Origin: Macrostomum lignano
Taxonomy: Eukaryota
DNA: 31,340 nt
Assembly: GCA_002269645.1 (NCBI GenBank)
Contig: NIVC01002654.1
Span: forward strand, 121,371-152,710
Reading direction: 5' to 3'
Translations under genes and position numbers: made by a program
Shown: positions 1 to 31,340 of the stretch, piece by piece
Numbering within the stretch: the stretch's first letter is position 1
Layout: every line of letters starts with the position of its first letter
Notes under the pieces: generated by a model
What the model saw: only the letters and a program-made list of their open reading frames with translations
Database searches by the model: none
Told to the model about the DNA's origin: nothing

Positions 1-777
1 TGGGGCCTATCCGACACTGATGTTGCTTATCCATCTCGACTGCGCTCCAGCGGAATTTTCGCTGGAACTGATAACCTGGCTTACGATTTGTCCATTCAAG
101 GCTGCTCTCGCATCAATTATTCGGGATTCCTTGATGACTTTTTATCCACGTACTATCTGTCCTGCGTTGCAAAGTGCACAGCGCCAGGAACTTCTTGTTC
201 GAACTGTGCGACTCCAAGTCGAGACTGTCGCTCATTTTTTCTGCCCTCTTGTCGCTATATGTGCTCGCGCAGAGTGCGTATTAAACATCGGAACCATTCT
301 ACAGATGCTGATCATCGGTTACATCAGGAGTTTTACCGTCCAGACCTCGACCTAGATTGGTGCCACAACGACGGCCTAGTACCAATTGCCAGTCAGCGTT
401 ATCCTATTGGCGGCTCGCACTCTATTGGCGGCGAGTTGAGTTCGGAGCAGCCAGAACAGGGTCGCTGGTACTACACAAACGCTACTGATCTGGCTGGCGT
501 ACAGCCGAATCTGTCCTGGGACCACGCCGACTTTACAGTGCTGCGTAGTCCTCTTCTTAGCTTGGCTTTTCCAGCCAATAGCAGTATTTGCCGATTTCTG
601 CGATGCGGCCGTAAGGGCAGTCTAGCGCCAGCTCGTGCTCCATTGAAAGATGCGGAGCTTAATACAAACGAAAAATCTGACCCCGATGCTGATGCTGAAT
701 CTGGCGGGACAGTGACACGTTGCATGCAGCGCTCCTTCTATGAGCGGCTGTACCGCCATCTGAGCGGCCTGTCTTAG
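1..777 (+). CDS. Partial open reading frame ending at stop 775-777. Frame 1 has no stops from base 1, so this is a possible terminal coding exon of an unknown protein. The listed ORF start at 88 is a TTG.
   Basis: About 259 codons without a stop in moderately GC-rich DNA, followed by AT-rich sequence. The translation is Cys-rich, but I recognise no domain. The frame-1 translation from base 1 was done by hand. Confidence 0.25.
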   Translation, partial: WGLSDTDVAYPSRLRSSGIFAGTDNLAYDLSIQGCSRINYSGFLDDFLSTYYLSCVAKCTAPGTSCSNCATPSRDCRSFFLPSCRYMCSRRVRIKHRNHSTDADHRLHQEFYRPDLDLDWCHNDGLVPIASQRYPIGGSHSIGGELSSEQPEQGRWYYTNATDLAGVQPNLSWDHADFTVLRSPLLSLAFPANSSICRFLRCGRKGSLAPARAPLKDAELNTNEKSDPDADAESGGTVTRCMQRSFYERLYRHLSGLS

Positions 778-1343
778 GTTACATTGGTTTAACGCAAACC
801 CTTTTGCCGAAGAAACATTTTGTTACAGATAAGTTGAATTTGAAACTTGGAAAATATTTTGTTTCTTTCATTATTTTTCAGTTTATGCTTAGCCATATTG
901 CTTTTTAAAATACCACATTATTTGTACTCCAATGAAACTTTTCCTGGAATACGCCGAGGCGCCCAATAATTTATTGTTCAAACTTAATTATTATGATGCT
1001 TTACGCTCTTTTGACCTGAAATATACGAGCTACCATTGACTTTTGCTTCCATCAGAAGCATGCGGTTTCGAGTTAATCTTTATTTTGCGATTATTGTACC
1101 TTAAAAATTGCTAGTGAAGGTACTTACGAGCGTAGTCTCGTTGCTCGTAGATGTATGCTTTTGTTTCAGAATCAGAATCTAAAGAATCTTAGCTCTATCT
1201 ACTCGTCATTGCGTTTGGCAGTTATTTATAGTCGTAATTTGTCGATTTACATTTAGTTTTCAAACGAAGTTAGTGAAATGTTTTCAAGGTGGCGACAATA
1301 AAGTGAATTTAAATATATTTTCGTTTCCGTTTCTTATGCCTGC

Positions 1344-3767
1344 ATGCCTAAAATGCCGCGTCAGCAATCGTCGTCCTCTGAGGACTCATCATCCGAAGAT
1401 GAGAAAGTGAAAAAGCCAACAACCCCTGGAGGCAAAGTGATCCCGAGTCCCAGCAAGACTGGATCAGCTGCAAAAAAACCACAGAAGCGTCCTGTGCCTG
1501 CCGAATCATCAAGCGATTCTGATTCTGATTCGTCTGACGCTAAGCCGCCAGTCAAAAAGGCTGCGCCTGTCAAGCCCGTTGGTAAGAAGGTAGTGGCTGA
1601 GGACTCATCAACCGACTCGTCTTCTGAGAACGAGAAGCCACCAGCCAAGAAGCCAGCTGCTGCCACTCCTGCAGCCAAGCCAGCTGCTGCCACTCCTGCA
1701 GCCAAGACACCCAAAAAGACACCGGTAAAAAAGCAGGAGTCGTCGTCAAGCGACTCGTCTTCTGAGGACGAGAAGCCACCAGCCAAGAAGCCAGCTGCTG
1801 CCACTCCTCCAGCCAAGACACCTAAAAAGACACCGGTAAAAAAGCAGGAGTCGTCATCAAGCGACTCGTCTTCTGAGGACGAGAAGCCACCAGCCAAGAA
1901 GCCAGCTGCTGCAACTCCTCCAGCCAAGACACCCAAAAAGACACCGGTAAAAAAGCAGGAGTCGTCATCAAGCGACTCGTCTTCTGAGGACGAGAAGCCA
2001 CCAGCCAAGAAGCCAGCTGCTGCTACTCCTGCAGCTGCAGCCAAGCCAGTCACAAAAACACCGGCAAAGAAGCAGGAGTCGTCATCAAGCGACTCGTCTT
2101 CTGAGGACGAGAAGCCACCAGCCAAGAAGCCAGCTGCTGCTACTCCTGCAGCTGCAGCCAAGCCAGTCACAAAAACACCGGCAAAGAAGCAGGAGTCGTC
2201 ATCAAGCGACTCGTCTTCTGAGGACGAGAAGCCACCAGCCAAGAAGCCAGCTGCTGCTACTCCTGCAGCCAAGCCAGCTGCTGCCACTCCTGCAGCCAAG
2301 ACACCCAAAAAGACACCGGTAAAAAAGCAGGAGTCGTCGTCAAGCGACTCGTCTTCTGAGGACGAGAAGCCACCAGCCAAGAAGCCAGCTGCTGCCACTC
2401 CTCCAGCCAAGCCAGCCACAAAGACACCGGTAAAGAAAAAGGAGTCGTCATCAAGCGACTCTTCTTCTGAGGATGAGAAGCCAACAGCTAAGAAAGTAGC
2501 TCCTGCTGCTGCCACTCCTGCAGCCAAGACACCCAAAAAGACACCAGTAAAGAAGCAAGATTCTTCATCCAGTGATTCTTCGGATGATGAACAGCCGCCA
2601 CCAAAAAAGATCGCCCTTACTAACAACGCCAATAAAAAGTCGCCCGTGTCAGAAAAGCTGCCAAACGGAAAGCATATTGTGCCAAAAGCGACGCATTGCC
2701 TTCTGCTAAGCAATCTGGATCCTTCCATCACTCGAAAGGACCTGTCCAACTTTTTGGACGACAAAGACATTGCTCGTCTTGACGCAGGTTTAGTCAGTGC
2801 TCCGATTGCAATGATCTGCTTTGAAAGTAAATCTGATGCAGATGCTGCGGCCTCTAAGTGCCAAAATGCGTCTCTAAAGAATCGACAGTTCAGCATTAAC
2901 ACTTTGTCCGGACCGGTGGATCATCTCCAAGTACTACTTGGAGACGGTGCACCGAAGGTTTCAGCTCCAATGACGAATGACTTTTCTCAGAAAGACAAAT
3001 CTCGCGAAGAACTGCGCGGACAGGCTCGCTCTGTTATTTTGCTAAATGTGCCTGCCGATGCAGAGGAATCAGATGTGCGCGCTGCTTTTCCAGGGGGTTC
3101 TCGCTACAATGTTAAGACTCGTCCCGGTTCTGACACAGGCGTCTGCTTTGTGGATTTTGATTCAGAGGCTGACTGCTCTGCCGGTTTTGACGAATTCCGC
3201 GGCGTTGGACAATTCGGCGGTCGCGAGGTTGCTGTCGCCTTCGTTGCGCCAAGGCCGGAAAGGAAGTCATTTGGTGGCGGTGGCGGGGGCGGTCCTGGTT
3301 CAGATAATCCTCCGTCAAAAACTGTTGGCGTGTTTAATCTTCCGTACAGTGCCACTGTCGAACAGTTGTGGGAGTATTTCCCTAAAGCACAAGATCTGTT
3401 TATTCCTAAAGGCGATGATGGCCGCAGCCGCGGATTTGCTTTCGTCACGTTTGACTCGATTGATAGCGCCAGCGAGGCTGTCAACGCTGGACTGACTCTG
3501 GACGGTCGGCAGACCCGGATCGAGTATCGCGAAGATCGCAGTGGAGGCGGACGTGGCGGTGGCCGTGGCGGCGGCCGCGGTGGATTTGGCGGTGGCCGTG
3601 GTGGCTTTGACAGTGGGCGTGGCGGTGGCCGAGGTGGCGGCTTTGGCGGTGGTCGTGGCGGTCGTGGTGGAGGCCGCGGTGGACGTGGAGGCTTTGGCGC
3701 TCCCAAGCCTCGCATAGAGATCGATACAGCCAAGCAGAGCCGCAAGTTGGATTCTGACTCGGATTAA
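1344..3767 (+). CDS. NCL: Nucleolin-like nucleolar RNA-binding protein, single uninterrupted 807-aa ORF. N-terminal acidic Ser/Asp/Glu clusters alternate with basic K/P/A/T repeats. Three RRM-like domains follow (RNP1-like RGFAFVTF in the last), then a C-terminal Gly/Arg-rich (RGG/GAR) domain.
   Basis: Direct reading of the translation gives the repeat EDEKPPAKKPAAATPAAKTPKKTPVKKQESSSSDSSS about 9 times. RRM-like blocks include KTVGVFNLPYSATVEQLWEYF...RGFAFVTFDS. The tail is (GGGRGG)n. This matches the known nucleolin/NSR1 domain order. The antisense 513-aa ORF is a repeat artefact. Confidence 0.8.
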   Translation: MPKMPRQQSSSSEDSSSEDEKVKKPTTPGGKVIPSPSKTGSAAKKPQKRPVPAESSSDSDSDSSDAKPPVKKAAPVKPVGKKVVAEDSSTDSSSENEKPPAKKPAAATPAAKPAAATPAAKTPKKTPVKKQESSSSDSSSEDEKPPAKKPAAATPPAKTPKKTPVKKQESSSSDSSSEDEKPPAKKPAAATPPAKTPKKTPVKKQESSSSDSSSEDEKPPAKKPAAATPAAAAKPVTKTPAKKQESSSSDSSSEDEKPPAKKPAAATPAAAAKPVTKTPAKKQESSSSDSSSEDEKPPAKKPAAATPAAKPAAATPAAKTPKKTPVKKQESSSSDSSSEDEKPPAKKPAAATPPAKPATKTPVKKKESSSSDSSSEDEKPTAKKVAPAAATPAAKTPKKTPVKKQDSSSSDSSDDEQPPPKKIALTNNANKKSPVSEKLPNGKHIVPKATHCLLLSNLDPSITRKDLSNFLDDKDIARLDAGLVSAPIAMICFESKSDADAAASKCQNASLKNRQFSINTLSGPVDHLQVLLGDGAPKVSAPMTNDFSQKDKSREELRGQARSVILLNVPADAEESDVRAAFPGGSRYNVKTRPGSDTGVCFVDFDSEADCSAGFDEFRGVGQFGGREVAVAFVAPRPERKSFGGGGGGGPGSDNPPSKTVGVFNLPYSATVEQLWEYFPKAQDLFIPKGDDGRSRGFAFVTFDSIDSASEAVNAGLTLDGRQTRIEYREDRSGGGRGGGRGGGRGGFGGGRGGFDSGRGGGRGGGFGGGRGGRGGGRGGRGGFGAPKPRIEIDTAKQSRKLDSDSD
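1630..2560 (+). repeat. In-frame coding tandem repeat inside the nucleolin-like gene, with units of 111, 117 and 138 bp and about 8-9 copies, many identical to the base.
   Basis: The motif cgactcgtcttctgaggacgag recurs at 1751, 1862, 1973, 2090, 2207 and 2345, giving spacings of 111, 111, 117, 117 and 138. Confidence 0.85.
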
Positions 3768-3857
3768 TTTATGTTTCATCTAACTTTCCTAAGCTGCGAC
3801 GCTTTTTGAAGCTTTATTTTCCATCTTTTTGTGTCTGCTGAATTTCAGCACATTATT

Positions 3858-3863
3858 AATAAA
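3858..3863 (+). promoter_or_regulatory. AATAAA polyadenylation signal about 90 bp downstream of the nucleolin-like stop codon.
   Basis: The hexamer aataaa within cattattaataaaagc. No genomic poly-A tract follows. Confidence 0.4.
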
Positions 3864-5720
3864 AGCAAAACAGTTTAATGCTTCAAATACTATCTTTGTT
3901 ACTGTATTTGTGGTTTGCTAAATTTGATTAATTCGTATTTTTGGGTGTTTTCCTCTTACATCGTCGCTCATTGGTCGCGATTTTGTTTAATGTCATCCTT
4001 GCAGTTGAAAATTTGCTAACAGACCAATTTTTTAAACTAAAACTTTTTAAATTGTATTGTTCAACAAATTTTCAACAAAATCGGCAAATTATTAATGCTG
4101 TACTTATTACAGTTTGGTACAATTATTCTCCTATTTCATACTGCAAACCTTTTCTGTCGTGACTAAAATTTTTTTCGGTTTGTTGTGAGACGGCTAAAAA
4201 GGCCGGTCGCTTAGAGCGTTTTAAGCCTAAAAAACATCTTTTTCACGAGGCGGCATTTTGCATTTGCACCATTACCAGTCCCTGTCTATCTAAGCATTGT
4301 TCGTTTTAATAATTCTCAATGGATAGGCGGGGTAATAAATTTGACATTTATTGTGCCTATCGCAGAAGAGCAAACGCCGTGTTTTACTGTGGCAACGCGC
4401 AACAGTGCTATTGGAATAAAAAAAACTGTGCCATTGGAGGCATATCCTTTGTTGTCTTGTCTTTTCTGTCAAATGTTTTAAAGGACTGAACTCTAGTTGA
4501 TGAAGTAGACTGGGTTATGATATATTATTGATAGAAATCCTATTTTAGATTCTAGTCTAGTTCATTGTGCACTTCATGTAGCTAGAAGTGATGCTCTAGA
4601 AGTGCTTGCTTTGGTTTTTATCTACGTTCTGTCAGCCAAAACAACTGAATCCCTCTATACAAAAAATTTACATCACTGCATATTTCTTTCATCATATCCA
4701 ATAAAATTGCTTGTCTAAATCTTTAAGATTTGCGTCTATCCCGCTCTAGAATTAAAGCTTCTATGCAGATACTAAACCGCTAGACGGGGACCTTAGGCTG
4801 CACGAGTAATGTCTCACTTTTTCTGCCTGGTGCGTCCTTCTTGACACATTTTGCCGTGCATCGTCATTTGATCTTGCATCTGCGGTGTTTCAATCGTCTG
4901 ATATAGCACTTCATCGCCCTAAATCTCGAAGTTGCGTCACTTGGTCCATTGCGGTTGCTGTCTCGGCGTTGGCCTACTCTGCACCATCCGCTGAAGGATC
5001 TAAGCCGACCAAATGAGGCTGTGCATGCTGCTATATCTGTTCAGTCTCTCACTTTTGATGGCGAGCAGCAGTGACCTGCTATCGGATAAGATGAGCGCGC
5101 TTCGCGGTCCCTTTTCCTCCAGCAGTTCGAGGGCGAGGTGCAAGGCCGCGTCGTACTTTAACCGTCATATGCAGGCTGATTATTGACATCATCATCAACA
5201 GAAACGTCGCTGAAGAGGATCGACTCACCTATAGTGGCCCCGATACGTCTGAAGCGATTGATGTCTCCTTTCTTGGAACCCCGAAACTGGAGCTCGGGGT
5301 AGATAATGGTGCCGTTTTATCAACCGTAGCCATTGAGGTGTCTGATGGTCGCAGACAGCTCCCTGGGAGCGTGACTGATCGACTGAGTCACTGACCGAAC
5401 CCGCTCGCGCCAGCCCTTGTTGGCTTTGAGGCATTGAGGGACGGTGGGCTCGCAGAGCTGCCTCAGGATGTTGAGTGTGGTTTAATAATCGCTTTCTCCC
5501 ATTCCATAACGCACGTATAGCGCGCCCTGTAGATGGTGGAGGAGGTGCCTCCAGATAGACTATTGTCTCCAGATAGACGGCCTCTGTCAGGGTGGATCGA
5601 ACGAGACCAGCCGTTATCCGCAGCCACTCTTTGAACTCTTTTTTTCCATATTCGTTTTAGAGATCCAAGGTAACCAAGCAGATGCGCAGTACCAAAAACG
5701 CAGCTTTTAACCACTGCCTT

Positions 5721-10595: not shown

Positions 10596-11033
10596 ATGGA
10601 TCTCTATCACTATTTGCAGAGCCGAGAAGCAATCTCCGCACTGATGGCTCTGGAGCCTCACGGTGTGTGCCACACACTGTGCATAAAATGGAGCGTTGCC
10701 AAGATCATCTATCTCCTATCCGGCTCGCTAATTGTATGCGGCTTCACCGTGGAGATGATTGTCATCGGCATGATAGTGGCGCCCTACCTCAGGGAGGCCG
10801 AGTTCGTGGAGGCCAGTTGCCAGTTTAACTCCAGTCGGTATACCGGCTACACAGACTGCCAAGATGTGAATAGAAAGCCAAATAACAACTTCCCTTGTCT
10901 AGAGGTGCTGGTCAACTTTTTCCCCCACAGTTCCAGTAAATTGCCAGTAAATTCCAGTAAATTGTTCGGAGGCGGAGTGGCCACCATCTACTCCGTGCTG
11001 TCGTACTATGAGGAGTCTTCTAGTACGTCAAAG
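10596..11033 (+). CDS. Exon 1 of KCNMB-like paralog 1 (BK-channel beta-subunit-like two-TM protein). It has a short N-terminus, TM1 (IIYLLSGSLIVCGFTVEMIVIGMIV) and a Cys-containing extracellular loop. It ends at the donor AAG|gtgagc, phase 0.
   Basis: The motif PYLREAEFVEASCQFNS resembles the PALQDLQATEANCTVLS region of vertebrate KCNMB4 as I recall it. The donor GTGAGC immediately follows the last in-frame codon before the stop. An internal Met 17 codons downstream of the start (MALEPHG...) is an alternative start. Confidence 0.6.
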
Positions 11034-11698
11034 GTGAGCTGAAACAGTTTGACTGCCTCACCCGTAAACTGCGCCTTCGCCTGTCTCCTCAGCCGTAAGT
11101 TCACAAGGCCTGTTGCCTAAGTGCTTCTTCGTCCTTGAGCTGTCTTTTCCTATAAAGCAGGTTTTTTTCTAAGAGTCTACATTGTATCTCCTATAGACAG
11201 TTCAGACGGATGAATAATTTCCTACCTCTGTTTCATTTTTTGGCTGAAAATATGCTTCAATTTTAGTGTAGTGACTAGCAATTTGCGCCCCCTTTGGGAG
11301 GCAACAAAGAAAGAAGATTTTTTTTGAATCAGCTACATGTAAGATTTGACTTTGGCAATACAATTGCTATTGTTAATTTATTGAAGCTTGTTAATCCTAC
11401 TGAATTTGAGAAATTCCCCTCTTCCATAAACCTTGCCACCTCAACAATTCTTTTCTTGAGTCCTTACAGCATTTGGACGAATAAGTTCCTCCTTTTTAGC
11501 TGTCTACTACGTGTCCCTTCTCTACGCTCGCTTTCCCTCAGCTATCGGCTCCTGATAATAGATAGCGTCCCACCGAAAGCGACTTCCGTAGGGCTGTATT
11601 TTATCGTATGTTTGACTTTTTAAGTCTTCGCCTAAAATTAATCTTCAAAATTTTTAACCGCCACTTCTGTGTAATTTCCCCAATACAACAATCTACAG

Positions 11699-13003: not shown

Positions 13004-14352
13004 GGGTACCTCTCATTTCGCCGATTCTCGTTTCGCCGAATCTCATTTTGCAGATTCTCGTTTCGCCGAATCTCATTTTGCAGATTCTCGTTTCGCCGAC
13101 ATTATCATTTCGCCGATTCTCGTTTCGCCGAAATTAATTTCATAACCATCTGGACATTAGACCATAGACAACTACACTAATGCCAAGTGTGATTTGGATG
13201 TCTATGGCTTGAAAAAGAAAGTTAAAATTAAGAATTCTTCCTTCTGCATAATCCATGGTAAAAAGTCTATAGCCAGTGGTATATATGTATGGTATAGGAG
13301 GTTGTGAAATACAAAAATGCCGATTGAAATCGTTTCTGTTGGCTTTTCTGGTGAAATAAATAAGTGGTTTTATTGCATTGACTTCTGAATTGAATGAGTT
13401 AAAACTACGCTCGTAATGCTGGTAAGCTAACGAAATTAAGCTGCAAAAAGGCTACGATACTAGCGCAATATTACTATAGCTTTTTGCAGCCCATTTGGGC
13501 TTACGCGCATTGAATTTAATCCAAGATGTTTGTCAAAGTAACGGAGCTTTTGTCTATGGTAGCAAGGCTGGCACAGCGGCATTTAATTTGGTCCAACAAG
13601 CATCAATTTGGTCCATTTAGTTCATTTGCAGCTCAGTCCCAGAATTGTGGACCATATGCTAGGCTGTTGAACGAATGTCATTGGCTTGTGATCGAAGCAC
13701 TCGACGGAGGTGAACACCCAAAGGACATTGCAAGGTTGCTGAATGTAAAAGAAAAGGTGGTTTACAACATCCAGCAGCGCCTTGAAACTCTGCCGGCAGA
13801 GATTGCCTGCGAAAGGGTGGCAATCGCCAAGGAAAGTTGCTCGAGAGCCTCAGGTCAACTGCTACTCGATGCAGTGGAGACGAACCCTTTGTTGACGTTG
13901 CCGAAATGCAGCAGAAGTTGAGGGAACAGCTCCAGTTGGTTATCAGATTTTGACTATCAGCAGAGCTCTGAAAAAGCAACTGAAAATTGCTGGTAGAGAC
14001 GCTGACATTCCAGCGGTGCGCAACAACCTGCAGACAGTTGAGAGAAGGCAAGAGTGTCCAATGGCTCACGAGTGTTTGGACCAAATTGATGCTTGTTGGA
14101 CCAAATTAAATGCCGCTGCGCCAGCCTTGCTACCATAGACAAAAGCTCTGTTACATTGGCAAACGTATCTTGGATTAAATTAAATGCGCGTAAGCCCAAA
14201 TGGGCTGCAAAATGCTATATTACATTACTTTATTTTTCAAGCCATAGACATCTAAATCACATTTGCATTAGTGTAGTTGTCTATGGTCTAATGTCCAGAT
14301 GGTTATTAAATTAATTTCGGCGAAACGAGAATCGGCGAAATGAGAGGTACCC
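13004..14352. mobile_element. Foldback-like DNA transposon of about 1.35 kb with GGTACC-containing termini. The outer terminal inverted repeats (TIRs) are 13004-13217 and 14231-14352. The left TIR carries a 34-bp subterminal tandem expansion. The inner inverted repeats of about 145 bp are 13475-13617 and 14087-14230. A roughly 240-bp left-side insertion lies between the left outer and inner repeats. The unique core carries an ORF.
   Basis: The reverse complement of 14087-14352 matches 13004-13030, then 13150-13217, then 13475-13617 by eye. The 34-bp unit cgccgattctcgtttcgccgaatctcattttgcagatt is repeated in the left arm only. Confidence 0.55.
13526..13921 (+). CDS. ORF remnant in the foldback element core, with a helix-turn-helix-like segment (ECHWLVIEALDGGEHPKDIARLLNVKEKVVYNIQQRL) reminiscent of the Tc1/mariner or pipsqueak-type transposase N-terminal DNA-binding domain. 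Probably non-functional.
   Basis: It has the residue pattern R..IV....G.....IA..L.V....V..I..R. Its first 30 codons lie inside the inverted repeat and are mirrored by minus ORF 13957..14199. At 131 aa it is too short for a transposase. Confidence 0.2.
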   Translation: MFVKVTELLSMVARLAQRHLIWSNKHQFGPFSSFAAQSQNCGPYARLLNECHWLVIEALDGGEHPKDIARLLNVKEKVVYNIQQRLETLPAEIACERVAIAKESCSRASGQLLLDAVETNPLLTLPKCSRS

Positions 14353-15877: not shown

Positions 15878-16213
15878 ATGGCGTTGAAACGCTGCGACCG
15901 CCTATGCAATGTTCACGGCCTGGCCAAGCTCATCTTCCTGGCCTGCATCACTCTCATCACCTGTGGCGTAATTGTTGGCACAATCCTGGTGCCGCTGATC
16001 ATCCTGCCGTACTCCAGAGAGAGCCGCTTCGCCGACGCCAACTGCACCTATCTGACCGAGCACCTCATCGCCAAGCTGCCCTGCGAGAGCAAGTGCAGCA
16101 AAGACAAGAGCAGCTTCCCCTGCTACAGCATTCGGGTCAGCATCAGCCAGACCAATCAAACCGGGATGCTGTACGAGAACTTCATCACGTTTTCTGAGCG
16201 ACACGACGAGCCG
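15878..16213 (+). CDS. Exon 1 of KCNMB-like paralog 2, containing TM1 (LIFLACITLITCGVIVGTILVPLIIL) and the loop start, with donor CCG|gtaaga, phase 0.
   Basis: PYSRESRFADANCTYLTEH and FPCYSIRVS resemble the ATEANCTVLS and YPCVQVYVN regions of KCNMB4 as I recall it. Exon size and intron phase match paralog 1. Confidence 0.55.
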
Positions 16214-16273
16214 GTAAGAACTGTGGTCTAGATAATTTTATTTTGCTGGAGCCGGTGCAACATTTTGATAGAA

Positions 16274-19899: not shown

Positions 19900-20510
19900 G
19901 GTTGAGCAGATCCTGAGTCTCTCACCTGCAGTTGAGCAGGTCCTGAGTCGCTCATCTGCAGTTGAGCAGATCCTGAGTCTCTCACCTGCAGTTGAGCAGG
20001 TCCTGAGTCGCTCATCTGCAGTTGAGCAGATCCTGAGTCTCTCACCTGCAGTTGAGCAGGTCCTGAGTCCCGCATCTGGAGTTGAGAAGGTCCTGAGTCG
20101 CTCATCTGCAGTTGAGCAGATCCTGAGTCTCTCACCTGCAGTTGAGCAGGTCCTGAGTCGCTCATCTGCAGTTGAGAAGGTCCTGAGTCGCTCATCTGCA
20201 GTTGAGCAGATCCTGAGTCCCGCATCTGGAGTTGAGAAGGTCCTAAGTCCCTCATCTGGAGTTGAGAAGGTCCTAAGTCCCTCATCCGGAGTTGAGAAGG
20301 TCCTAAGTCCCTCATCCGGAGTTGAGAAGGTCCTGAGTCCCTCATCCGGAGTTGAGAAGGTCCTGAGTCCCTCATCCGGAGTTGAGAAGGTCCTGAGTCC
20401 CTCATCCGGAGTTGAGAAGGTCCTGAGTCCCTCATCCGGAGTTGAGAAGGTCCTAAGTCCCTCATCTGGAGTTGAGAAGGTCCTGAGTCCCTCATCCGGA
20501 GTTGAGCAGG
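19900..20510 (-). repeat. 30-bp satellite array of about 20 copies in reverse orientation, unit ctcacctgcagttgagcaggtcctgagtcg, with ordered subvariants.
   Basis: Direct reading. The reverse complement equals the unit of 22231-23215. The 263-aa ORF over it is a periodicity artefact. Confidence 0.9.
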
Positions 20511-21626: not shown

Positions 21627-22151
21627 TCATCGGGAAGCTGCGGCGAAGGTCAACCCGTCATCTCGGCGAACCTCCGGCTCCGGCTCGGGCAGAGACGCAC
21701 CCGATTCTTCGTTGGCTTCACGCAGTCCAGCCTCCTCGCGATCGGCTTCATCGTCCTCTCCGAGTTCCTGCTCCTCCTCATAGTCTGCGTCGGCATCACA
21801 GGCGTATTTGCCGAGCTCTGCCGAGTCGGCGGCGAACAGGCTCTGGTAGGCGCCAACGAGCTGCTGGAACAGCGGCTGCTGCTGTGAGCTGTCGGCCTCG
21901 CTGTGAGCCAGAGTCGCAGTCTCCACAACGTGGCACCAAGGCGCCGAGGCTGCAGCGGCGGCAGCAGCGGCCGCGGCGGCTGCGGCAGCGGCTGAATAGG
22001 CCGACTGAGCATCCTGCTGCTGCTGCTGATGCTGTTGCTGAGAATGATGAAGATGGCTAGGATGCTGCAGATGATGCTGGCCGCCAAGGTGCTGTCTCGG
22101 ATCGTGTCTGACAGGCGATGACGCAATCATTGGTATGCCGTTCAGAGTGCG
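21627..22151 (-). CDS. ISL: Islet LIM-homeobox gene, C-terminal coding exon. It follows the acceptor cttgtcttacctctccccag|, phase 0. The translation is RTLNGIPMIASSPVRHDPRQ...polyQ, polyA...QQQPLFQQLVGAYQSLF...acidic tail, then a stop.
   Basis: LNGIPMIASSPVRHD and QPLFQQLVGAY match vertebrate ISL1 IQGMTGTPMVAASPERHD and QPAFQQLVNF as I recall them. A strong polypyrimidine acceptor is present, and the phase is continuous with the homeodomain exon. Confidence 0.75.
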   Translation of the reverse strand, partial: RTLNGIPMIASSPVRHDPRQHLGGQHHLQHPSHLHHSQQQHQQQQQDAQSAYSAAAAAAAAAAAAAAASAPWCHVVETATLAHSEADSSQQQPLFQQLVGAYQSLFAADSAELGKYACDADADYEEEQELGEDDEADREEAGLREANEESGASLPEPEPEVRRDDGLTFAAASR

Positions 22152-22230: not shown

Positions 22231-23215
22231 GTTCCCGGTTAAGGACTCAGGATCTGCCCGAATTCAGATGAAGGCCTCAGGATCTGCTCAACTGCAGGTA
22301 AGAGACTCAGGATCTGCTCAACTGCATGTGAGGGACTCAGGACCTGCTCAGCTCCCGGTGAGGGACTCAGGACCTACTCAACTGCGGGTGAGGAACTCAG
22401 GATCTGCTCAAATTCAGGTGAGGGACTCAGGATCTGCTCAACTTCAGATGAGGAACTCAGGATCTGCTCAACTGCAGGTGAGGGACTCAGGACCTGCTCA
22501 ACTGCATGTGAGGGACTCAGGACCTGCTCAACTTCAGATGAGGAACTCAGGATCTGCTCAACTGCAGGTGAGGGACTCAGGACCTACTCAACTGCGGGTG
22601 AGGAACTCGGGATCTGCTCAAATTCAGGTGAGGGACTCAGGATCTGCTCAACTTCAGATGAGGAACTCAGGATCTGCTCAACTGCAGGTGAGGGACTCAG
22701 GACCTGCTCAACTGCATGTGAGGGACTCAGGACCTGCTCAACTTCAGATGAGGAACTCAGGATCTGCTCAACTGCATGTGAGGGACTCAGGACCTACTCA
22801 ACTGCGGGTGAGGAACTCAGGATCTGCTCAAATTCAGGTGAGGGACTCAGGATCTGCTCAACTTCAGATGAGGAACTCAGGATCTGCTCAACTGCAGGTG
22901 AGGGACTCAGGACCTGCTCAACTGCATGTGAGGGACTCAGGACCTGCTCAACTTCAGATGAGGAACTCAGGATCTGCTCAACTGCAGGTGAGGGACTCAG
23001 GACCTGCTCAACTGCGGGTGAGGGACTCAGGACCTGCTCAACTGCATGTGAGGGACTCAGGACCTGCTCAGCTCCCCGGTAAGAGACTCAGGATCTGCTC
23101 AACTGCGGGTGAGGGACTCAGGACCTGCTCAACTGCATGTGAGGGACTCAGGACCTGCTCAGCTCCCCGGTAAGAGACTCAGGATCTGCTCAACTCCCGG
23201 TGAGAGACTCAGGCT
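22231..23215 (+). repeat. 30-bp satellite array of about 32 copies, plus orientation, unit ctgctcaactgcaggtgagggactcaggac, with a higher-order pattern of variants. It lies in the Islet intron between the homeodomain and C-terminal exons.
   Basis: Direct reading. The 301-aa RDSGPAQLQV ORF is a periodicity artefact. Confidence 0.9.
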
Positions 23216-23809: not shown

Positions 23810-24300
23810 AATGAATGAATAGAATGGATTGCTAATCTAGCCAACATCACGGATGCAGGAATAGAATGGATTGCTAATCTAGCCAACATCACGGATGCAG
23901 GAATAGAATGGATTGCTAATCTAGCCAACATCACGGATGCAGGAATAGAATGGATTGCTAATCTAGCCAACATCACGGATGCAGGAATAGAATGGATTGC
24001 TAATCTAGCCAACATCACGGATGCAGGAATAGAATGGATTGCTAATCTAGCCAACATCACGGATGCAGGAATGGAATGGATTGCTAATCTAGCCAACATC
24101 ACGGATGCAGGAATAGAATGGATTGCTAATCTAGCTAACATCACGGATGCAGGAATAGAATGGATTGCTAATCTAGCCAACATCACGGATGCAGGAATGG
24201 AATGGATTGCTAATCTAGCCAACATCACGGATGCAGGAATAGAATGGATTGCTAATCTAGCCAACATCACGGATGCAGGAATAGAATGGATTTGCTAATC
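23810..24300. repeat. 42-bp minisatellite of about 11.5 copies, unit gaatagaatggattgctaatctagccaacatcacggatgcag. It lies in an Islet intron and ends 50 bp from the homeodomain exon donor.
   Basis: Direct reading. Units are nearly identical. Confidence 0.9.
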
Positions 24301-24351
24301 TGTCTTATAAATAATGAACAAAAAAGATTACCTTCTGATAGACATCCTCAC

Positions 24352-24731
24352 CTTCTGCTGCTGGTGCTCCATCTGTTTCATGAGCAGCTGTTTCTTCTTG
24401 TCCTTGCACCGCTTGTTCTGAAACCAGACCCTGATGACTCGCGGGCTCAGGCCGGTCATCTCCACCAGCTGCTCCTTCATCAGCGCGTCCGGCCGAGGAT
24501 TGGCCGCGTAGCAGGTGCGCAGCGTGTGCAGCTGCTTCTCGTTCAGCACCGTCCGGACTCGGGTCGCTTTGCTGCTGTCCTTGCCGCCGCCGCCGCCGCC
24601 GCCACAGACGGTTTTTCCGCGCTTCCCTCCGCCTGCGGCGGCGCCACTTGAAGCGCCGGTTCCACTGCCGACACCGTTGGACACAGCAGGCTCCGACGCC
24701 GTTGACTGACTCGCTGAATCCTCGTCGTTGC
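24352..24731 (-). CDS. ISL: Islet LIM-homeobox gene, homeodomain exon. It follows the acceptor aacctgataaacag|, starts in phase 1 with 2 bases, and ends at the donor CAGAAG|gtgagg, phase 0. It encodes ...[72 protein letters not shown]
   Basis: The homeodomain is identical over about 57 residues to vertebrate ISL1 ([57 protein letters not shown]) as I recall it. The ORF-track Met at 24684 is actually a GTG. Confidence 0.9.
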
Positions 24732-25579: not shown

Positions 25580-26338
25580 CACAATCTGCGGACACAATCT
25601 AGGCAAATCTGCAGACACAATCTTGACATAGCTGGAGACACAATCTTGACATAGCTGGAGACACAATCTTGACAAATCTGCAGACACAATCTCGGCAAAT
25701 CTGCAGACACAATCTCGGCAAATCTGCAGACACAATCTAGGCAAATCTGCAGGCACAATCTCGGCAAATCTGCAGACACAATCTTGACAAATCTGCAGAC
25801 ACAATCTCGGCAAATCTGCAGACACAATCTCGGCAAATCTGCAGGCACAATCTCGGCAAATCTGCAGACACAATCTTGACAAATCTGCAGACACAATCTC
25901 GGCAAATCTGCAGACACAATCTTGACAAATCTGCAGACACAATCTTGACAAATCTGCAGACACAATCTTGACAAATCTGCAGACACAATCTTGACAAATC
26001 TGCAGACACAATCTCGGCAAATCTGCAGACACAATCTTGACAAATCTGCAGACACAATCTAGGCAAATCTGCAGGCACAATCTCGGCAAATCTGCAGACA
26101 CAATCTCGGCAAATCTGCAGACACAATCTAGGCAAATCTGCAGACAATCTCGGCAAATCTGCAGACACAATCTAGGCAAATCTGCAGGCACAATCTCGGC
26201 AAATCTGCAGACACAATCTCGGCAAATCTGCAGACACAATCTTGACAAATCTGCAGACACAATCTCGGCATATCTGCAGACACAATCTCGGCAAATCTGC
26301 AGACACAATCTTGACAAATCTGCAGACACAATCTCGAC
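25580..26338. repeat. 23-bp minisatellite of about 32 copies, unit caaatctgcagacacaatctcgg, with cttgac/ctaggc/ctcggc variants. It lies in the Islet intron between the LIM2 and homeodomain exons.
   Basis: Direct reading. The minus-strand ORFs rich in RLCLQICRDCVC are artefacts because 3 x 23 = 69. Confidence 0.9.
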
Positions 26339-26992
26339 ACAGCCACAGACACAAGCTTAGCACAAGTCACAGACACAAGCTTAGCACAAGCCACAGACAC
26401 AAGTTTAGCACAAGTCACAGACACAAGCTTAGCACAAGTCACAGACACAAGCTTAGCACAAGTCACAGACAAGTTTAGCACAAGTCACAGACACAAGCTT
26501 AGCACAAGCCACAGACACAAGTTTAGCACAAGTCACAGACACAAGCTTAGCACAAGTCACAGACACAAGCTTAGCACAAGTCACAGACACAAGCTTAGCA
26601 CAAGTCACAGACAAGTTTAGCACAAGCCACAGACACAAGTTTAGCACAAGTCACAGACACAAGCTTAGCACAAGTCACAGACACAAGCTTAGCACAAGTC
26701 ACAGACAAGTTTAGCACAAGTCACAGACACAAGCTTAGCACAAGTCACAGACAAGTTTAGCACAAGCCACAGACACAAGTTTAGCACAAGTCACAGACAC
26801 AAGCTTAGCACAAGTCACAGACAAGTTTAGCACAAGCCACAGACACAAGTTTAGCACAAGTCACAGACACAAGCTTAGCACAAGCCACAGACACAAGTTT
26901 AGCACAAGTCACAGACACAAGCTTAGCACAAGTCAGAGACAAGTTTAGCACAAGCCACAGACACAAGTTTAGCACAAGCCACAGACACAAGC
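26339..26992. repeat. 24-bp minisatellite of about 27 copies, unit acacaagcttagcacaagtcacag, with 21-bp deletion variants. It is directly contiguous with the 23-bp array and shares the CAGACACAA core.
   Basis: Direct reading. The +-strand ORF translating to repeated HRHKLSTS is an artefact. Confidence 0.9.
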
Positions 26993-27570
26993 TCAGAAGT
27001 CTCAATGCACCCCATATGCCAATATTCTATGATTGAGACCATCGAGCTTTTGCAGTCAAATTGAAATAGGAATCCTAGCGCCGACTATTCGCTATCGCAA
27101 TCCTGTTTGAACTGCAAAAGCCAGCGCTGAATCTCAGTCCAGACCTCCTCAGGATCGTGACTAAACCGCGATTTCAAAGTGACGGCCGTGCTCTAGCCAA
27201 AAATGAAATTGGAAAGTTTTATAAAGTCAAGTTGGGGATATAAAATATTGGGATTTAGATTGGCGTGGTGGGGGGGGGGATAATCTCGACGCGAGTGGCT
27301 CTCGGCAGATGCCAGATATAAACCCGGGACTTCACAAATTATCTGCCCATAAGAGGCTCTTCATGCTGATGCAATTATCAAACACTTCTCTTATCAAATT
27401 GATGGGAAGCGATGAGAACCTTCTGTTTTGGCAGTTTACCCTCAAATTGCATCTGCAGGGCCTACTTGATGTTGGCTGACAGTTTCAGGTCAATAAAATT
27501 CAATTTTCACCTATTGATAGATGAAGCTGTCAAATTGAAACCATCATTTTGTTGTCAATCTGCTGTCTGC

Positions 27571-27935
27571 TATCAACCTGAAGCTATCAACCTGAAGCTA
27601 TCAACCTGAAGCTATCAACCTGAAGCTATCAACCTGAAGCTATCAACCTGAAGCTATCAACCTGAAGCTATCAACCTGAAGCTATCAACCTGAAGCTATC
27701 AACCTGAAGCTATCAACCTGAAGCTATCAACCTGAAGCTATCAACCTGAAGCTATCAACCTGAAGCTATCAACCTGAAGCTATCAACCTGAAGCTATCAA
27801 CCTGAAGCTATCAACCTGAAGCTATCAACCTGAAGCTATCAACCTGAAGCTATCAACCTGAAGCTATCAACCTGAAGCTATCAACCTGAAGCTATCAACC
27901 TGAAGCTATCAACCTGAAGCTATCAACCTGAAGCT
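27571..27935. repeat. 14-bp tandem repeat of about 26 near-perfect copies, unit tatcaacctgaagc.
   Basis: Direct reading. Confidence 0.9.
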
Positions 27936-28165
27936 AGCCTGAAACTAGCAACCTGAAGCTAACCTGAAACTAAAACCTGAAGCTAGCCTGAAACTGTCAA
28001 CCTGAAGCTAGCCTGAAACTGTCAACCTGAAGCTAGCCTGAAACTGTCAACCTGAAGCTAGCCTGAAACTGTCAACCTAAAGCTAGCCTGAAACTGTCAA
28101 CCTGAAGCTAGCCTGAAACTGTCAACCTGAAGCTAGCCTGAAACTGTCAACCTGAAGCTAGCAAC
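27936..28165. repeat. 25-bp minisatellite of about 8 copies, unit gaagctagcctgaaactgtcaacct. It is derived from and contiguous with the 14-bp unit.
   Basis: Direct reading. Confidence 0.85.
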
Positions 28166-28216
28166 TGTACATTCTTCATCTGTACTGTCACAAGCCCAGC
28201 GGAGCCAATTGCTCAC

Positions 28217-28554
28217 ACTCCATACCCGGGTGCAGCTGGTTCACCCCGCTGCTGCCAATGCTGTCGCCCGGGCTGCCAACGCCGACAATGTGCGACGGCG
28301 GCTGCTGTTGCGGCGACCTCTGCGTTGTCGACGACGCGTCGACGAAATCTCCAGTGAGCAGCGCGTCAAAGTCGGCCCGACAGTAGATGCCGCCGTCGTC
28401 GCGTCTAACGCCGAATTCTTCGCCTGGAACCAGCTGCCTCGCGCAGGCCTGGCAGCGGAAGCAGGTCACGTGATAGAGCCGGGACTGGGCGCGCATCACC
28501 GGCTCGGACTTGACCAGGGCGACGCTGCACTTGGCGCACCGGCTGCCGAACAGC
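28217..28554 (-). CDS. ISL: Islet LIM-homeobox gene, LIM2 exon. It follows the acceptor ctctcacctctccag|, phase 2, and encodes (R)LFGSRCAKCSVALVKSEPVMRAQSRLYHVTCFRCQACARQLVPGEEFGVRRDDGGIYCRADFDALL... The donor is either GAGT|gtgagc, giving a 3' end of 28217, or CCGG|gtatgg, giving 28226. Both are phase 1 and compatible with the homeodomain exon.
   Basis: Matches the ISL1 LIM2 region [63 protein letters not shown] as I recall it. Exon phase arithmetic was checked by hand. The 207-aa ORF 28188..28811 contains it, and its upstream part is minisatellite. Confidence 0.8.
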
Positions 28555-28614
28555 CTGGAGAGGTGAGAGCGAGGCGAGCGGTTTGAGTGAGGGGAGAGGG
28601 TAGGCAAAGGGAAT

Positions 28615-28838
28615 GGAGATGATGCAGAGGAGAGGGCGGAGATGATGCAGAGGAGAGGGCGGAGATGATGCAGAGGAGAGGGCGGAGATGATGCAGAGGA
28701 GAGGGCGGAGATGATGCAGAGGAGAGGGCGGAGATGATGCAGAGGAGAGGGCGGAGATGATGCATCGGAGAGGTCGGAGATGATGCGGAGGAGAGGTCGG
28801 AGATGATGCATCGGAGAGGTCGGAGATGATGCGGAGGA
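28615..28838. repeat. 23-bp minisatellite of about 9.5 copies, unit ggagatgatgcagaggagagggc. It starts about 60 bp upstream, in the intron, of the Islet LIM2 exon acceptor.
   Basis: gatgcagagg at 28621 and 28644 give a 23-bp period. Confidence 0.9.
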
Positions 28839-29439: not shown

Positions 29440-31340
29440 GCTCATGCTAATACCCGATGACTACTTATTGATCATGCTCATAATACCACATGAGTATTAA
29501 TTGATCATGCTCATAATACCATATGACTATCAATGATCATGCTCATAATACCATATGACTATTCAATGATCATGCTCATAATATCAGATGACTATTCAAT
29601 GATCATGCTCATAATACCAGATGACTATTCAATGATCATGCTCATAATACAGATGACTATTCAATGATCATGCACATAATACCAGATGACTATTCAATGA
29701 TCATGCTCATAATACCAGATGACTATTCAATGATCATGCTCATAATATCAGATGACTATTCAATGATCATGCTCATAATACCAGATGACTATTCAATGAT
29801 CATGCTCACAATACCAGATGACTATTCAATGATCATGCTCATAATACCAGATGAGTATTAATTGATCATGCTCATAATACCATATGACTATTCAATGATC
29901 ATGCTCATAATATCAGATGACTATTCAATGATCATGCTCATAATATCAGATGACTATTCAATGATCATGCTCATAATACCATATGACTATTCAATGATCA
30001 TGCTCATAATACCAGATGACTATTCAATGATCATGCTCATAATATCAGATGACTATTCAATGATCATGCTCATAATACCAGATGACTATTCAATGATCAT
30101 GCTCACAATACCAGATGACTATTCAATGATCATGCTCATAATACCAGATGAGTATTAATTGATCATGCTCATAATACCATATGACTATTCAATGATCATG
30201 CTCATAATATCAGATGACTATTCAATGATCATGCTCATAATATCAGATGACTATTCAATGATCATGCTCATAATACATATGACTATTCAATGATCATGCT
30301 CATAATACCAGATGACTATTCAATGATCATGCTCATAATACCAGATGAGTATTAATTGATCATGCTCATAATACCATATGACTATTCAATGACCATGCTC
30401 ATAATACCATATGACTATTCAATGATCATGCTCATAATACCAGATGAGTATTCAATGATCATGCTCATAATACCAGATGATATTCAATGATCATGCTCAT
30501 AATACCAGATGACTATTCAATGATCATGCTCATAATACCATATGACTATTCAATGACCATGCTCATAATACCATATGACTATTCAATGATCATGCTCATA
30601 ATACCATATGACTATTCAATGATCATGCTCATAATACCAGATGACTATTCAATGATCATGCTCATAATACCAGATGACTATTCAATGATCATGCTCATAA
30701 TACCAGATGACTATTCAATGATCATGCTCATAATACCAGATGACTATTCATGATCATGCTCATATTACCATGACTATTCAATGATCATGCTCATAATACC
30801 ATATGACTATTCAATGATCATGCTCATAATACCATATGACTATTTCAATGATCATGCTCATAATACCAGATGACTATTCAATGATCATGCTCATAATACC
30901 ATATGACTATTCAATGACCAGCTCATAATACCATATGACTATTCAATGATCATGGCTCATAATACAGATGACTATTCAATGATCATGTCATAATACAGAT
31001 GACTATTCAATGATCATGCTCATAATACCAGATGACTATTCAATGATCATGCTCATAATACCAGATGACTATTCAATGATCATGCTCATAATACCAGATG
31101 ACTATTCAATGATCATGCTCATATTACCATGACTATTCAATGATCATGCTCATAATACCTATGACTATTCAATGATCATGCTCATAATACCATATGACTA
31201 TTTCAATGATCATGCTCATAATACCAGATGACTATTCAATGATCATGCTCATAATACCAGATGACTATTCAATGATCATGCTCATATTACCATGACTATT
31301 CAATGATCATGCTCATAATACCATATGACTATTCAATGAT
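29440..31340. repeat. 33-bp satellite of about 58 copies, unit accagatgactattcaatgatcatgctcataat, with ccag/ccat/tcag variants and occasional 1-bp indels. It runs off the window end and presumably lies in the Islet intron upstream of LIM2.
   Basis: accagatgac at 29681 and 29714 give a 33-bp period. The MIMLIIPDDYS ORFs are artefacts. Confidence 0.9.

What the first reader, a model, noticed from the sequence alone, without database searches (positions are those of the whole stretch)
1344..3863. Intronless nucleolin-like gene with near-identical in-frame tandem repeats: a possible functional retrogene
The complete domain series (acidic/basic repeats, 3 RRMs, GAR tail) is encoded in a single 2.4-kb ORF with an AATAAA about 90 bp downstream. 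Animal nucleolin genes are normally multi-exonic and host intronic snoRNAs, so an intron-free copy suggests retroposition. The ORF is intact, so it may be expressed. The N-terminal 111/117/138-bp repeats are nearly identical at the DNA level. That means recent expansion or concerted evolution, so the copy number is likely polymorphic or mis-assembled.
Basis: partly seen in the sequence, partly recalled or inferred. Interest (0 to 1): 0.5.

Follow-up and report, generated by a model that had tools for sequence, protein, structure and literature searches.

The report
Intronless nucleolin gene in a flatworm
This is an intact nucleolin-family gene of the flatworm Macrostomum lignano, encoded without introns and carrying a recently expanded in-frame repeat array; nothing shows it is a recent retrocopy, so it is a fairly ordinary, if tidy, case of a gene that lost its introns.

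Summary
One 807-codon ORF (1344-3767, +) encodes ten acidic Ser/Asp/Glu clusters alternating with basic Lys/Pro/Ala stretches, three RRM folds, a 10-RGG tail and a short acidic C-terminus. AATAAA lies 90 nt after the stop codon. Eight in-frame tandem units of 111-138 bp fill 1602-2564, and two of them are 100% identical.

The window is Macrostomum lignano DNA. The best named relatives are nucleolins, and the protein is collinear with the three-RRM snail nucleolin, whose gene has at least 14 exons. The coding region here has therefore lost all its introns.

The retrogene reading is only partly supported. M. lignano does have a second, divergent nucleolin (four RRM-like modules, about 50% identical over the last two). 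I could not retrieve its DNA, so its intron status is unknown. There is no poly(A) remnant, no target-site duplication above chance and no spliced-leader remnant. Any RNA-mediated origin must therefore be old.

The 99%-identical annotated copy from the published assembly has two units instead of eight, plus a 1-nt frameshift in a short homopolymer.

Verdict: a probably functional, single-coding-exon nucleolin paralogue. It is a new member of a known kind and of modest interest.

The parts
1344..3767 (+). Complete single-exon coding sequence (807 codons plus TAA) of a nucleolin-family protein of Macrostomum lignano. A second in-frame ATG at 1353 has a better -3 A context.
1344..1601 (+). Non-repeated N-terminal acidic/basic segment (aa 1-86) with two Ser/Asp/Glu clusters.
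1602..2564 (+). Eight in-frame tandem units (138/111/111/117/117/138/111/~120 bp). Each encodes (E)SSSSDSSSEDE plus a KPPAKKPAAATP...TPKKTPVKK basic stretch. Units 4 and 5 are identical.
2562..2693 (+). Last, degenerate acidic cluster (SSSSDSSDDE) and the linker to RRM1.
2694..2909 (+). RRM1 (aa 451-522), a divergent RRM fold.
   Evidence: PF00076 at 23.2 bits; AlphaFold module E27-E98 of the query; 34% identical to RRM1 of paralogue P0122
3030..3245 (+). RRM2 (aa 563-634).
   Evidence: PF00076 at 18.3 bits, just under the cut-off; AlphaFold module 139-210; matches nucleolin chain 9cb5_A
3321..3530 (+). RRM3 (aa 660-729), a canonical RRM with RGFAFVTF as RNP1.
   Evidence: PF00076 at 43.1 bits; AlphaFold module 236-305, pLDDT about 90; matches NCL chain 2fc9 at 9e-13
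3540..3698 (+). Glycine/arginine-rich (GAR/RGG) domain with 10 RGG motifs.
3699..3767 (+). C-terminal tail ending ...KLDSDSD plus stop. The same kind of tail occurs in the M. lignano paralogue (KKFDSDSD), in Biomphalaria nucleolin (MTFDDSD) and in P0084 (LTFDNDSD).
3858..3863 (+). AATAAA polyadenylation signal 90 nt after the stop codon. It is followed by ordinary sequence, not an A-tract.
1164..1169 (+). Candidate 3' splice or SL trans-splice acceptor (ttttgTTTCAG|), 175 nt upstream of the ATG. No GTRAG donor lies upstream of it within 777-1360. This is inferred only.
   Evidence: motif [T/C]TNCAG from PMC8629364

Best explanation
Positions 1344-3767 hold a genuine, probably expressed nucleolin-family gene of Macrostomum lignano, here called paralogue A. 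Its whole protein is encoded in one exon.

By homology, the protein should work as nucleolins do. The N-terminal acidic Ser clusters (CK2-type sites) alternating with Lys/Pro/Ala stretches carrying TPxK (CDK-type) sites form a disordered, phospho-regulated module that binds chromatin and histones. The three RRMs bind pre-rRNA or other RNA. The RGG tail mediates nucleolar protein and RNA interactions.

Intronlessness is a derived state, because the mollusc orthologue is multi-exonic. It most probably came from one old RNA-mediated event. That event was either retroposition or replacement of the locus by cDNA, and the present data cannot tell which. It is not a recent retrocopy.

The near-identical 111-138-bp units are a coding minisatellite kept homogeneous by unequal recombination or slippage, in a genome that is full of minisatellites. 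Their number differs between assembled copies.

Shown: the ORF, the domains, the family assignment, the repeat structure, the absence of retroposition hallmarks, and the existence of a divergent paralogue. Inferred: expression, molecular function, and the mode and age of intron loss.
For: Species: the top hit is M. lignano BOX15_Mlig016750g1 at 99% identity.

Family:
- Named relatives are nucleolins from fish to amphioxus and snails.
- The best solved structure by sequence is nucleolin 9cb5_A, E=1.1e-27.
- The protein is collinear with the three-RRM-plus-GAR Biomphalaria nucleolin and shares its acidic C-terminal tail.

Three RRM folds.

Intact gene:
- 807 codons are open, while the other forward frames of the non-repeat part carry 7 and 25 stops.
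- AATAAA follows the stop codon.
- Units 2 and 3 differ only by synonymous changes.

Derived intron loss: the Biomphalaria gene has at least 14 exon blocks. M. lignano genes average 3-5 introns (PMC5730564; PMC10468722). The neighbouring Islet-type gene in this window is split by kb-sized introns.

Old event: the nearest paralogue, P0122, is only 50% and 34% identical. No poly(A), TSD or SL remnant is present.

Repeat dynamics: identical units, 2 against 8 units in P0001, and many other minisatellites in the window.
Against: - No transcript evidence could be obtained, so expression, the 5' end and any 5'-UTR intron are unknown.
- Two upstream out-of-frame or short ATGs (1278, 1336) lie just before the start codon.
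- The only other annotated copy (P0001) is frameshifted in RRM3. This could mean that at least one copy is decaying.
- RRM1 and RRM2 are divergent, and RRM2 falls below Pfam's cut-off.
- Intron loss could in principle have been stepwise rather than RNA-mediated.
Confidence: 0.7

Rival explanations
1. Old functional retrogene. An mRNA of an intron-containing ancestral nucleolin was reverse-transcribed and inserted at a new locus. The four-RRM paralogue B (P0122 / BOX15_Mlig030448g3) would be the lineage of the parent. The copy acquired a promoter, lost one RRM and evolved Ser-rich repeats.
For: - The whole CDS lacks introns although the orthologue has at least 14 exons.
- A second nucleolin locus exists. 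In the exhaustive search it is the closest relative apart from the near-identical copy P0001, which points to a lineage-specific duplication.
- Paralogue B keeps the fuller four-RRM, D/E-rich architecture.
Against: - No poly(A) tract, TSD or SL remnant is present. An old insertion would have lost these, so their absence is weak evidence.
- The intron status of paralogue B is unknown.
- The three-RRM layout equals that of mollusc nucleolin, so paralogue A could equally be the ancestral form.
Confidence: 0.35
2. Ancestral locus with in-situ intron loss. This is the original nucleolin locus. Its introns were removed either stepwise or by gene conversion with a cDNA, with no relocation.
For: - It has the same three-RRM architecture and C-terminal tail as mollusc nucleolin.
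- No insertion hallmarks are present.
- Highly expressed housekeeping genes are the classic substrates of cDNA-mediated intron loss (general knowledge).
Against: Complete loss of a dozen or more introns in a genome that keeps 3-5 introns per gene is unusual without a full-length cDNA event. No synteny data are available.
Confidence: 0.3
3. Recent processed retrocopy or pseudogene with no function.
For: The CDS is intronless. The P0001 copy carries a 1-nt frameshift.
Against: - The 807-codon ORF is intact and has a polyadenylation signal.
- No parent gene of high identity exists: the only near-identical sequence is another copy of the same intronless gene, and the next relative is about 50% identical.
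- No poly(A) tract or TSD is present.
- M. lignano is a recent polyploid with 79% duplicated BUSCOs, which explains the P0001 copy.
- The frameshift lies in an AAA/GG homopolymer of a long-read assembly.
Confidence: 0.05
4. The repeat array, or its count of eight units, is an assembly artefact rather than biology.
For: Units are 97-100% identical over 111-138 bp. Such arrays are easily expanded or collapsed, and the other assembled copy shows only two units.
Against: - The array keeps the reading frame.
- It has an ordered mix of three unit types (138/111/117) with private substitutions.
- It is flanked by degenerate older units.
- Collapse in the older assembly is at least as likely as expansion here.
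Confidence: 0.15

Closest known systems
Metazoan nucleolin (NCL), in particular the three-RRM spiralian form such as Biomphalaria glabrata nucleolin (P0045) and the Candidula unifasciata protein (P0176)
   Same: Same order of parts: acidic/basic N-terminal domain with TPxK sites, tandem RRMs, an RGG/GAR tail and a short ...FD(x)DSD-type C-terminus. The protein is collinear over all three RRMs. The best named sequence and PDB matches are nucleolin.
   Different: - It has no introns in the CDS, against at least 14 exons in Biomphalaria.
- Its acidic blocks are Ser-rich (SSSSDSSSEDE), not pure D/E runs.
- Identity to the Biomphalaria nucleolin is only about 26%.
- Vertebrate NCL has four RRMs and hosts intronic snoRNAs. 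No snoRNA or other Rfam family is found in this window.
M. lignano nucleolin paralogue B (PAA92341.1 BOX15_Mlig030448g3 = P0122; PAA75234.1 = P0002)
   Same: Same species. It is the closest relative apart from the near-identical copy P0001. It is 50% identical over the last two RRMs and 34% over RRM1, with the same GAR tail and KKFDSDSD ending.
   Different: - Paralogue B has an extra RRM-like module between RRM1 and the next RRM.
- It has D/E-rich acidic runs and KQQTPVAK repeats instead of the Ser-rich units.
- Its gene structure is unknown.
Nopp140 / Srp40 (NOLC1) family
   Same: The N-terminal half looks and probably behaves like Nopp140's central domain, with about ten Ser-acidic CK2-type clusters alternating with Lys/Pro/Ala basic stretches. 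Srp40-domain proteins, including one from the flatworm Cichlidogyrus, are hit by this half.
   Different: It has no Srp40 C-terminal domain (PF05022) or LisH N-terminus, and it has RRMs plus a GAR tail instead. The similarity is compositional and is not evidence of shared descent.
Yeast Nsr1 / S. pombe Gar2 and plant nucleolin-like proteins
   Same: Ser-rich acidic N-terminus, RRMs and a GAR tail. This rests on my own knowledge, plus fungal hits.
   Different: Those have two RRMs, and sequence identity is lower than to animal nucleolins.

Membership tests
Nucleolin family | N-terminal domain of alternating acidic and basic stretches with TPxK-type sites | tested here: met
   10 acidic clusters, 14 [ST]PxK sites and 42 S/T-x-x-D/E sites
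Nucleolin family | Central tandem RRMs (2-4) | tested here: met
   Three RRM folds. The middle one is below Pfam's cut-off by sequence but clear in the model.
Nucleolin family | C-terminal GAR/RGG domain | tested here: met
   10 RGG motifs in aa 730-790
Nucleolin family | Closest named relatives are nucleolins, with a collinear alignment | tested here: met
   A formal reciprocal best-hit test or phylogeny was not done.
Nucleolin family | Nucleolar localisation and pre-rRNA binding | not testable with these tools
   Needs experiment
Retrogene (retroposed gene copy) | Lacks the introns of its parent or orthologues | tested here: met
   Uninterrupted CDS against at least 14 exon blocks in Biomphalaria
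Retrogene (retroposed gene copy) | An intron-containing parental paralogue elsewhere in the same genome | tested here: inconclusive
   A divergent paralogue exists, but its DNA and exon structure could not be retrieved
Retrogene (retroposed gene copy) | Poly(A) tract remnant at the 3' end | tested here: not met
   No A-run of 6 or more between 3768 and 4228, and none next to the AATAAA at 3858
Retrogene (retroposed gene copy) | Flanking target-site duplications | tested here: not met
   The longest shared exact word between the flanks is 9 nt. The shuffled mean is 9.4 and the maximum 13. The 17-nt near-match D15 lies about 600 nt beyond the AATAAA at 3858.
Retrogene (retroposed gene copy) | Spliced-leader remnant at the 5' end. 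This would be expected only if the parent mRNA was SL trans-spliced. | tested here: not met
   No match with up to 3 mismatches. The best local alignment score is 9, equal to the shuffled mean.
Retrogene (retroposed gene copy) | New genomic location, meaning broken synteny relative to outgroups | not testable with these tools
   No Macrostomum or other flatworm genomic DNA could be reached

The most novel reading that the evidence does not exclude
Paralogue A is an old, functional retrogene that arose within the macrostomid lineage from a four-RRM, intron-containing nucleolin. It then lost one RRM and built a Nopp140-like, rapidly evolving Ser-rich repeat domain. On this reading it is a retro-duplicate that split or took over nucleolar functions, with repeat number varying between homeologues of the recently polyploid genome.
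Probability: 0.3. Interest if true: 0.35.

Novelty: new member of a known kind. Interest (0 to 1): 0.25.

Why it matters
It gives M. lignano researchers a clean, complete model of a nucleolin gene. The published annotation holds it only as a partial, frameshifted, repeat-collapsed entry.

It also documents a complete loss of coding introns in a core nucleolar gene of an otherwise intron-bearing genome. The coding minisatellite has a copy number that differs between assembled copies, which matters for assembly quality control, primer or RNAi design, and studies of homeologue divergence after the recent genome duplication.

It does not open a new biological question.

Tried and rejected
Look-ups and searches that led nowhere:
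- Exact-protein look-ups for the window protein, P0001, P0002 and P0122 all returned "not on record". No M. lignano genomic or transcript DNA outside the window could be read. The gene structure of paralogue B and all transcript evidence are therefore missing.
- A word-indexed search with the RRM region alone found only P0001.
- A search with the N-terminal half gave only compositional matches, to Nopp140/Srp40 proteins and protist nucleolin-like proteins.
- An Rfam scan of the window found no snoRNA or other RNA family, so there is no host-gene role. No tRNAs were found.
- Literature searches for Macrostomum with nucleolin, and for Macrostomum with retrogene, found nothing relevant.

Tests for retroposition hallmarks, all negative:
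- Spliced-leader remnant.
- Poly(A) tract and target-site duplication. The 17-nt near-repeat D15 (1273 and 4468) is at chance level and in the wrong position.

Readings rejected:
- That the N-terminal repeats make this a Nopp140 orthologue. It has no Srp40 domain, and it has RRMs plus a GAR tail.
- That P0268 (862 aa) is informative. It is a chimeric gene model fused to NAD(P)-binding-like repeats.
Full report
**What is there**

The + strand carries one open reading frame from the ATG at 1344 to the TAA at 3765-3767. It is 807 codons long. A second in-frame ATG at 1353 has the better aaaATG context. A short out-of-frame ATG lies at 1336 and a 7-codon one at 1278.

The frame is closed 42 nt upstream by a TAA at 1299-1301 (read directly). 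No AG lies between that stop and the ATG except the one at 1302-1303. The protein therefore cannot be extended upstream by a nearby coding exon.

AATAAA lies at 3858-3863, 90 nt after the stop codon.

**Domains**

- **N-terminal half (aa 1-422).** It is 19% Lys, 18% Ser, 17% Ala and 16% Pro. It holds ten Ser/Asp/Glu clusters such as ESSSSDSSSEDE, 14 [ST]PxK sites and 42 S/T-x-x-D/E sites.
- **RRMs by sequence.** Pfam finds RRM_1 on the whole protein (E=1.3e-18). Tested separately, the three candidate segments score 23.2, 18.3 and 43.1 bits against a 20.7-bit cut-off.
- **RRMs by structure.** An AlphaFold model of aa 425-745, built on a 15-sequence alignment, gives three separate beta-alpha-beta-beta-alpha-beta modules at aa 451-522, 563-634 and 660-729. 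Block pLDDT is 72-93, and the linkers are disordered. The top Foldseek matches in the PDB are three-RRM proteins (raver1, SHARP, Prp24), aligned over about 295 columns.
- **Tail.** It has ten RGG motifs and ends in KLDSDSD.

"Acidic/basic repeats, 3 RRMs, GAR tail" is therefore confirmed. The caveat is that RRM1 and RRM2 are divergent.

**Repeats**

TRF reports a 111-bp-period array at 1696-2569 with score 1076. Anchoring on the acidic block gives eight in-frame units of 138, 111, 111, 117, 117, 138, 111 and about 120 bp between 1602 and 2564.

| Units compared | Difference |
|---|---|
| 4 and 5 | identical (117/117) |
| 3 and 6 | 1 nt plus a 27-nt indel |
| 2 and 3 | 3 nt, all synonymous |
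| 1 and 8 (outer units) | the most divergent from the rest |

. This is the pattern of a coding minisatellite homogenised by unequal exchange.

The window holds many other minisatellites, with periods of 14-45 bp and up to 57 copies. This fits the published figure of 15% simple and tandem repeats in this genome (PMC5730564).

**Whose genome, and which family**

The best database hit is the partial protein BOX15_Mlig016750g1 of the flatworm Macrostomum lignano, at 99% identity (P0001).

All other named hits are nucleolins from fish, amphibians, birds, mammals, amphioxus and snails. The best solved structure by sequence is human nucleolin, 9cb5_A, at E=1.1e-27.

BLASTP against Biomphalaria glabrata nucleolin is collinear over RRM1, RRM2, RRM3 and the GAR tail. 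The odd acidic C-terminal tail is shared: MTFDDSD in the snail, KKFDSDSD in the other M. lignano paralogue, and LTFDNDSD in P0084.

I therefore file the gene as a nucleolin-family member. The N-terminal half also resembles Nopp140/Srp40 repeats, and Srp40-domain proteins are hit by it. That similarity is compositional. There is no Srp40 domain here.

**Is it intronless, and is that unusual?**

The CDS is uninterrupted, all three RRM modules fold complete, and BLASTP matches them in order against relatives.

The Biomphalaria gene spans 12.4 kb for 623 codons, and tblastn resolves at least 14 exon blocks. At least five of its introns fall within the RRM/GAR region.

M. lignano genes average about 3-5 introns of about 1.1 kb (PMC5730564; PMC10468722). 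The Islet-type LIM-homeodomain gene on the minus strand of this same window has its LIM and homeodomain exons about 3.5 kb apart.

**Is it a retrogene?**

*Evidence in favour*

An exhaustive HMMER search showed a second M. lignano nucleolin, P0122 (PAA92341.1, BOX15_Mlig030448g3; the same gene as P0002). Apart from the near-identical P0001, it is the closest relative of the window protein.

It is 50% identical over the last two RRMs and 34% over RRM1. It has D/E-rich acidic runs and an extra RRM-like module after RRM1. A "second nucleolin locus" therefore exists, and the duplication looks lineage-specific.

*Evidence against, or missing*

- The DNA of that paralogue could not be obtained, so whether it has introns is unknown. 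This is the decisive point.
- No A-run follows the AATAAA. The nearest runs of six or more As are at 4229 and 4418.
- The longest word shared by the 5' and 3' flanks is 9 nt, against a shuffled mean of 9.4.
- The 35-nt M. lignano spliced leader (PMC8629364) has no remnant upstream.
- At 34-50% protein identity to its nearest paralogue, the gene is old. The missing hallmarks therefore exclude only a recent retrocopy.
- Paralogue A has the same three-RRM layout as mollusc nucleolin, so it could equally be the ancestral locus that lost its introns in place, for example by recombination with a cDNA.

I put about 0.35 on old retroposition, about 0.3 on in-situ loss and about 0.05 on a dead retrocopy. 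In either of the first two cases the gene is best described as a functional single-coding-exon nucleolin paralogue.

**Function**

The frame is open for 807 codons. In the non-repeat part the other two forward frames carry 7 and 25 stops. The RNP-type motifs and folds are kept, the C-terminal tail is conserved, and a polyadenylation signal is in place.

By homology, I infer the following:
- The Ser-acidic clusters are CK2-type sites and the TPxK motifs are CDK-type sites, in a disordered regulatory and chromatin-binding domain.
- The RRMs bind pre-rRNA.
- The RGG tail, which in other nucleolins is arginine-methylated, supports nucleolar interactions.

None of this is tested here.

**The 5' end**

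A good acceptor-like site (ttttgTTTCAG|) lies at 1164-1169. It has no GTRAG donor upstream within 777-1360. That configuration favours SL trans-splicing in this species (PMC8629364). Without reads, this is only a candidate.

**Copy number and the frameshift**

P0001 is the annotated copy in the published assembly. It has two repeat units where the window has eight.

P0001 also switches to the +1 frame after ...DLFIPK. That corresponds to the loss of one base in cctAAAGGcg at about 3408-3413.

M. lignano is a recent hidden polyploid, with 79% duplicated BUSCOs among its annotated genes (PMC10468722). P0001 may therefore be a homeologue, a haplotig, or the same locus with long-read errors. A real decaying duplicate cannot be excluded.

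**Verdict**

This is a new member of a known kind. Its main value is as a corrected gene model and a small case study of intron loss and coding-minisatellite dynamics.

Noticed in passing
window 24328-24684 (-) and 28188-28811 (-): An Islet-type LIM-homeodomain gene lies on the minus strand. The homeodomain exon matches PF00046 at 1.5e-16 and a LIM exon matches PF00412 at 8.5e-13. They are separated by about 3.5 kb of intron packed with minisatellites.
   Followed up: partly
window 10596-11042 (+) and 15878-16231 (+): Two ORFs resemble each other and the BK-channel beta subunit family (CaKB, PF03185; E=0.0068 and 6.8e-8). They may be tandem paralogues.
   Followed up: partly
window 19901-20510 and 22243-23213: Two 30-bp minisatellite arrays of the same unit lie in opposite orientation (20 and 32 copies). 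They flank a polyQ/polyA-rich ORF at 21627-22130 (-), and both give long artefactual ORFs.
   Followed up: no
window 29448-31340: A 33-bp tandem repeat of at least 57 copies (94% matches, AT-rich) runs off the end of the window.
   Followed up: no
window 23817-24301, 25583-26993, 27569-28165, 28615-28838: Further minisatellites have periods of 42, 23/24 (with 70/94-bp higher order), 14 and 23 bp. The last one overlaps the ORF that contains the LIM exon.
   Followed up: no
window 13526-13921 (+): An ORF has a weak winged-helix/HTH_29 match (E=1.1e-4). It may be a transposase remnant.
   Followed up: no
window 88-777 (+): A 229-codon ORF ends 567 bp upstream of the nucleolin ATG and has no Pfam match. 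It is unclear whether it is the last exon of an upstream gene, which would bear on an operon or trans-splicing arrangement.
   Followed up: partly
protein P0268 (UniRef A0A1I8GJ39, M. lignano): This public gene model fuses the C-terminal half of nucleolin paralogue B to three copies of an unrelated repeated segment, each beginning ANKMPMKLAILGATGPTG... It looks like a chimeric annotation across tandem genes.
   Followed up: no
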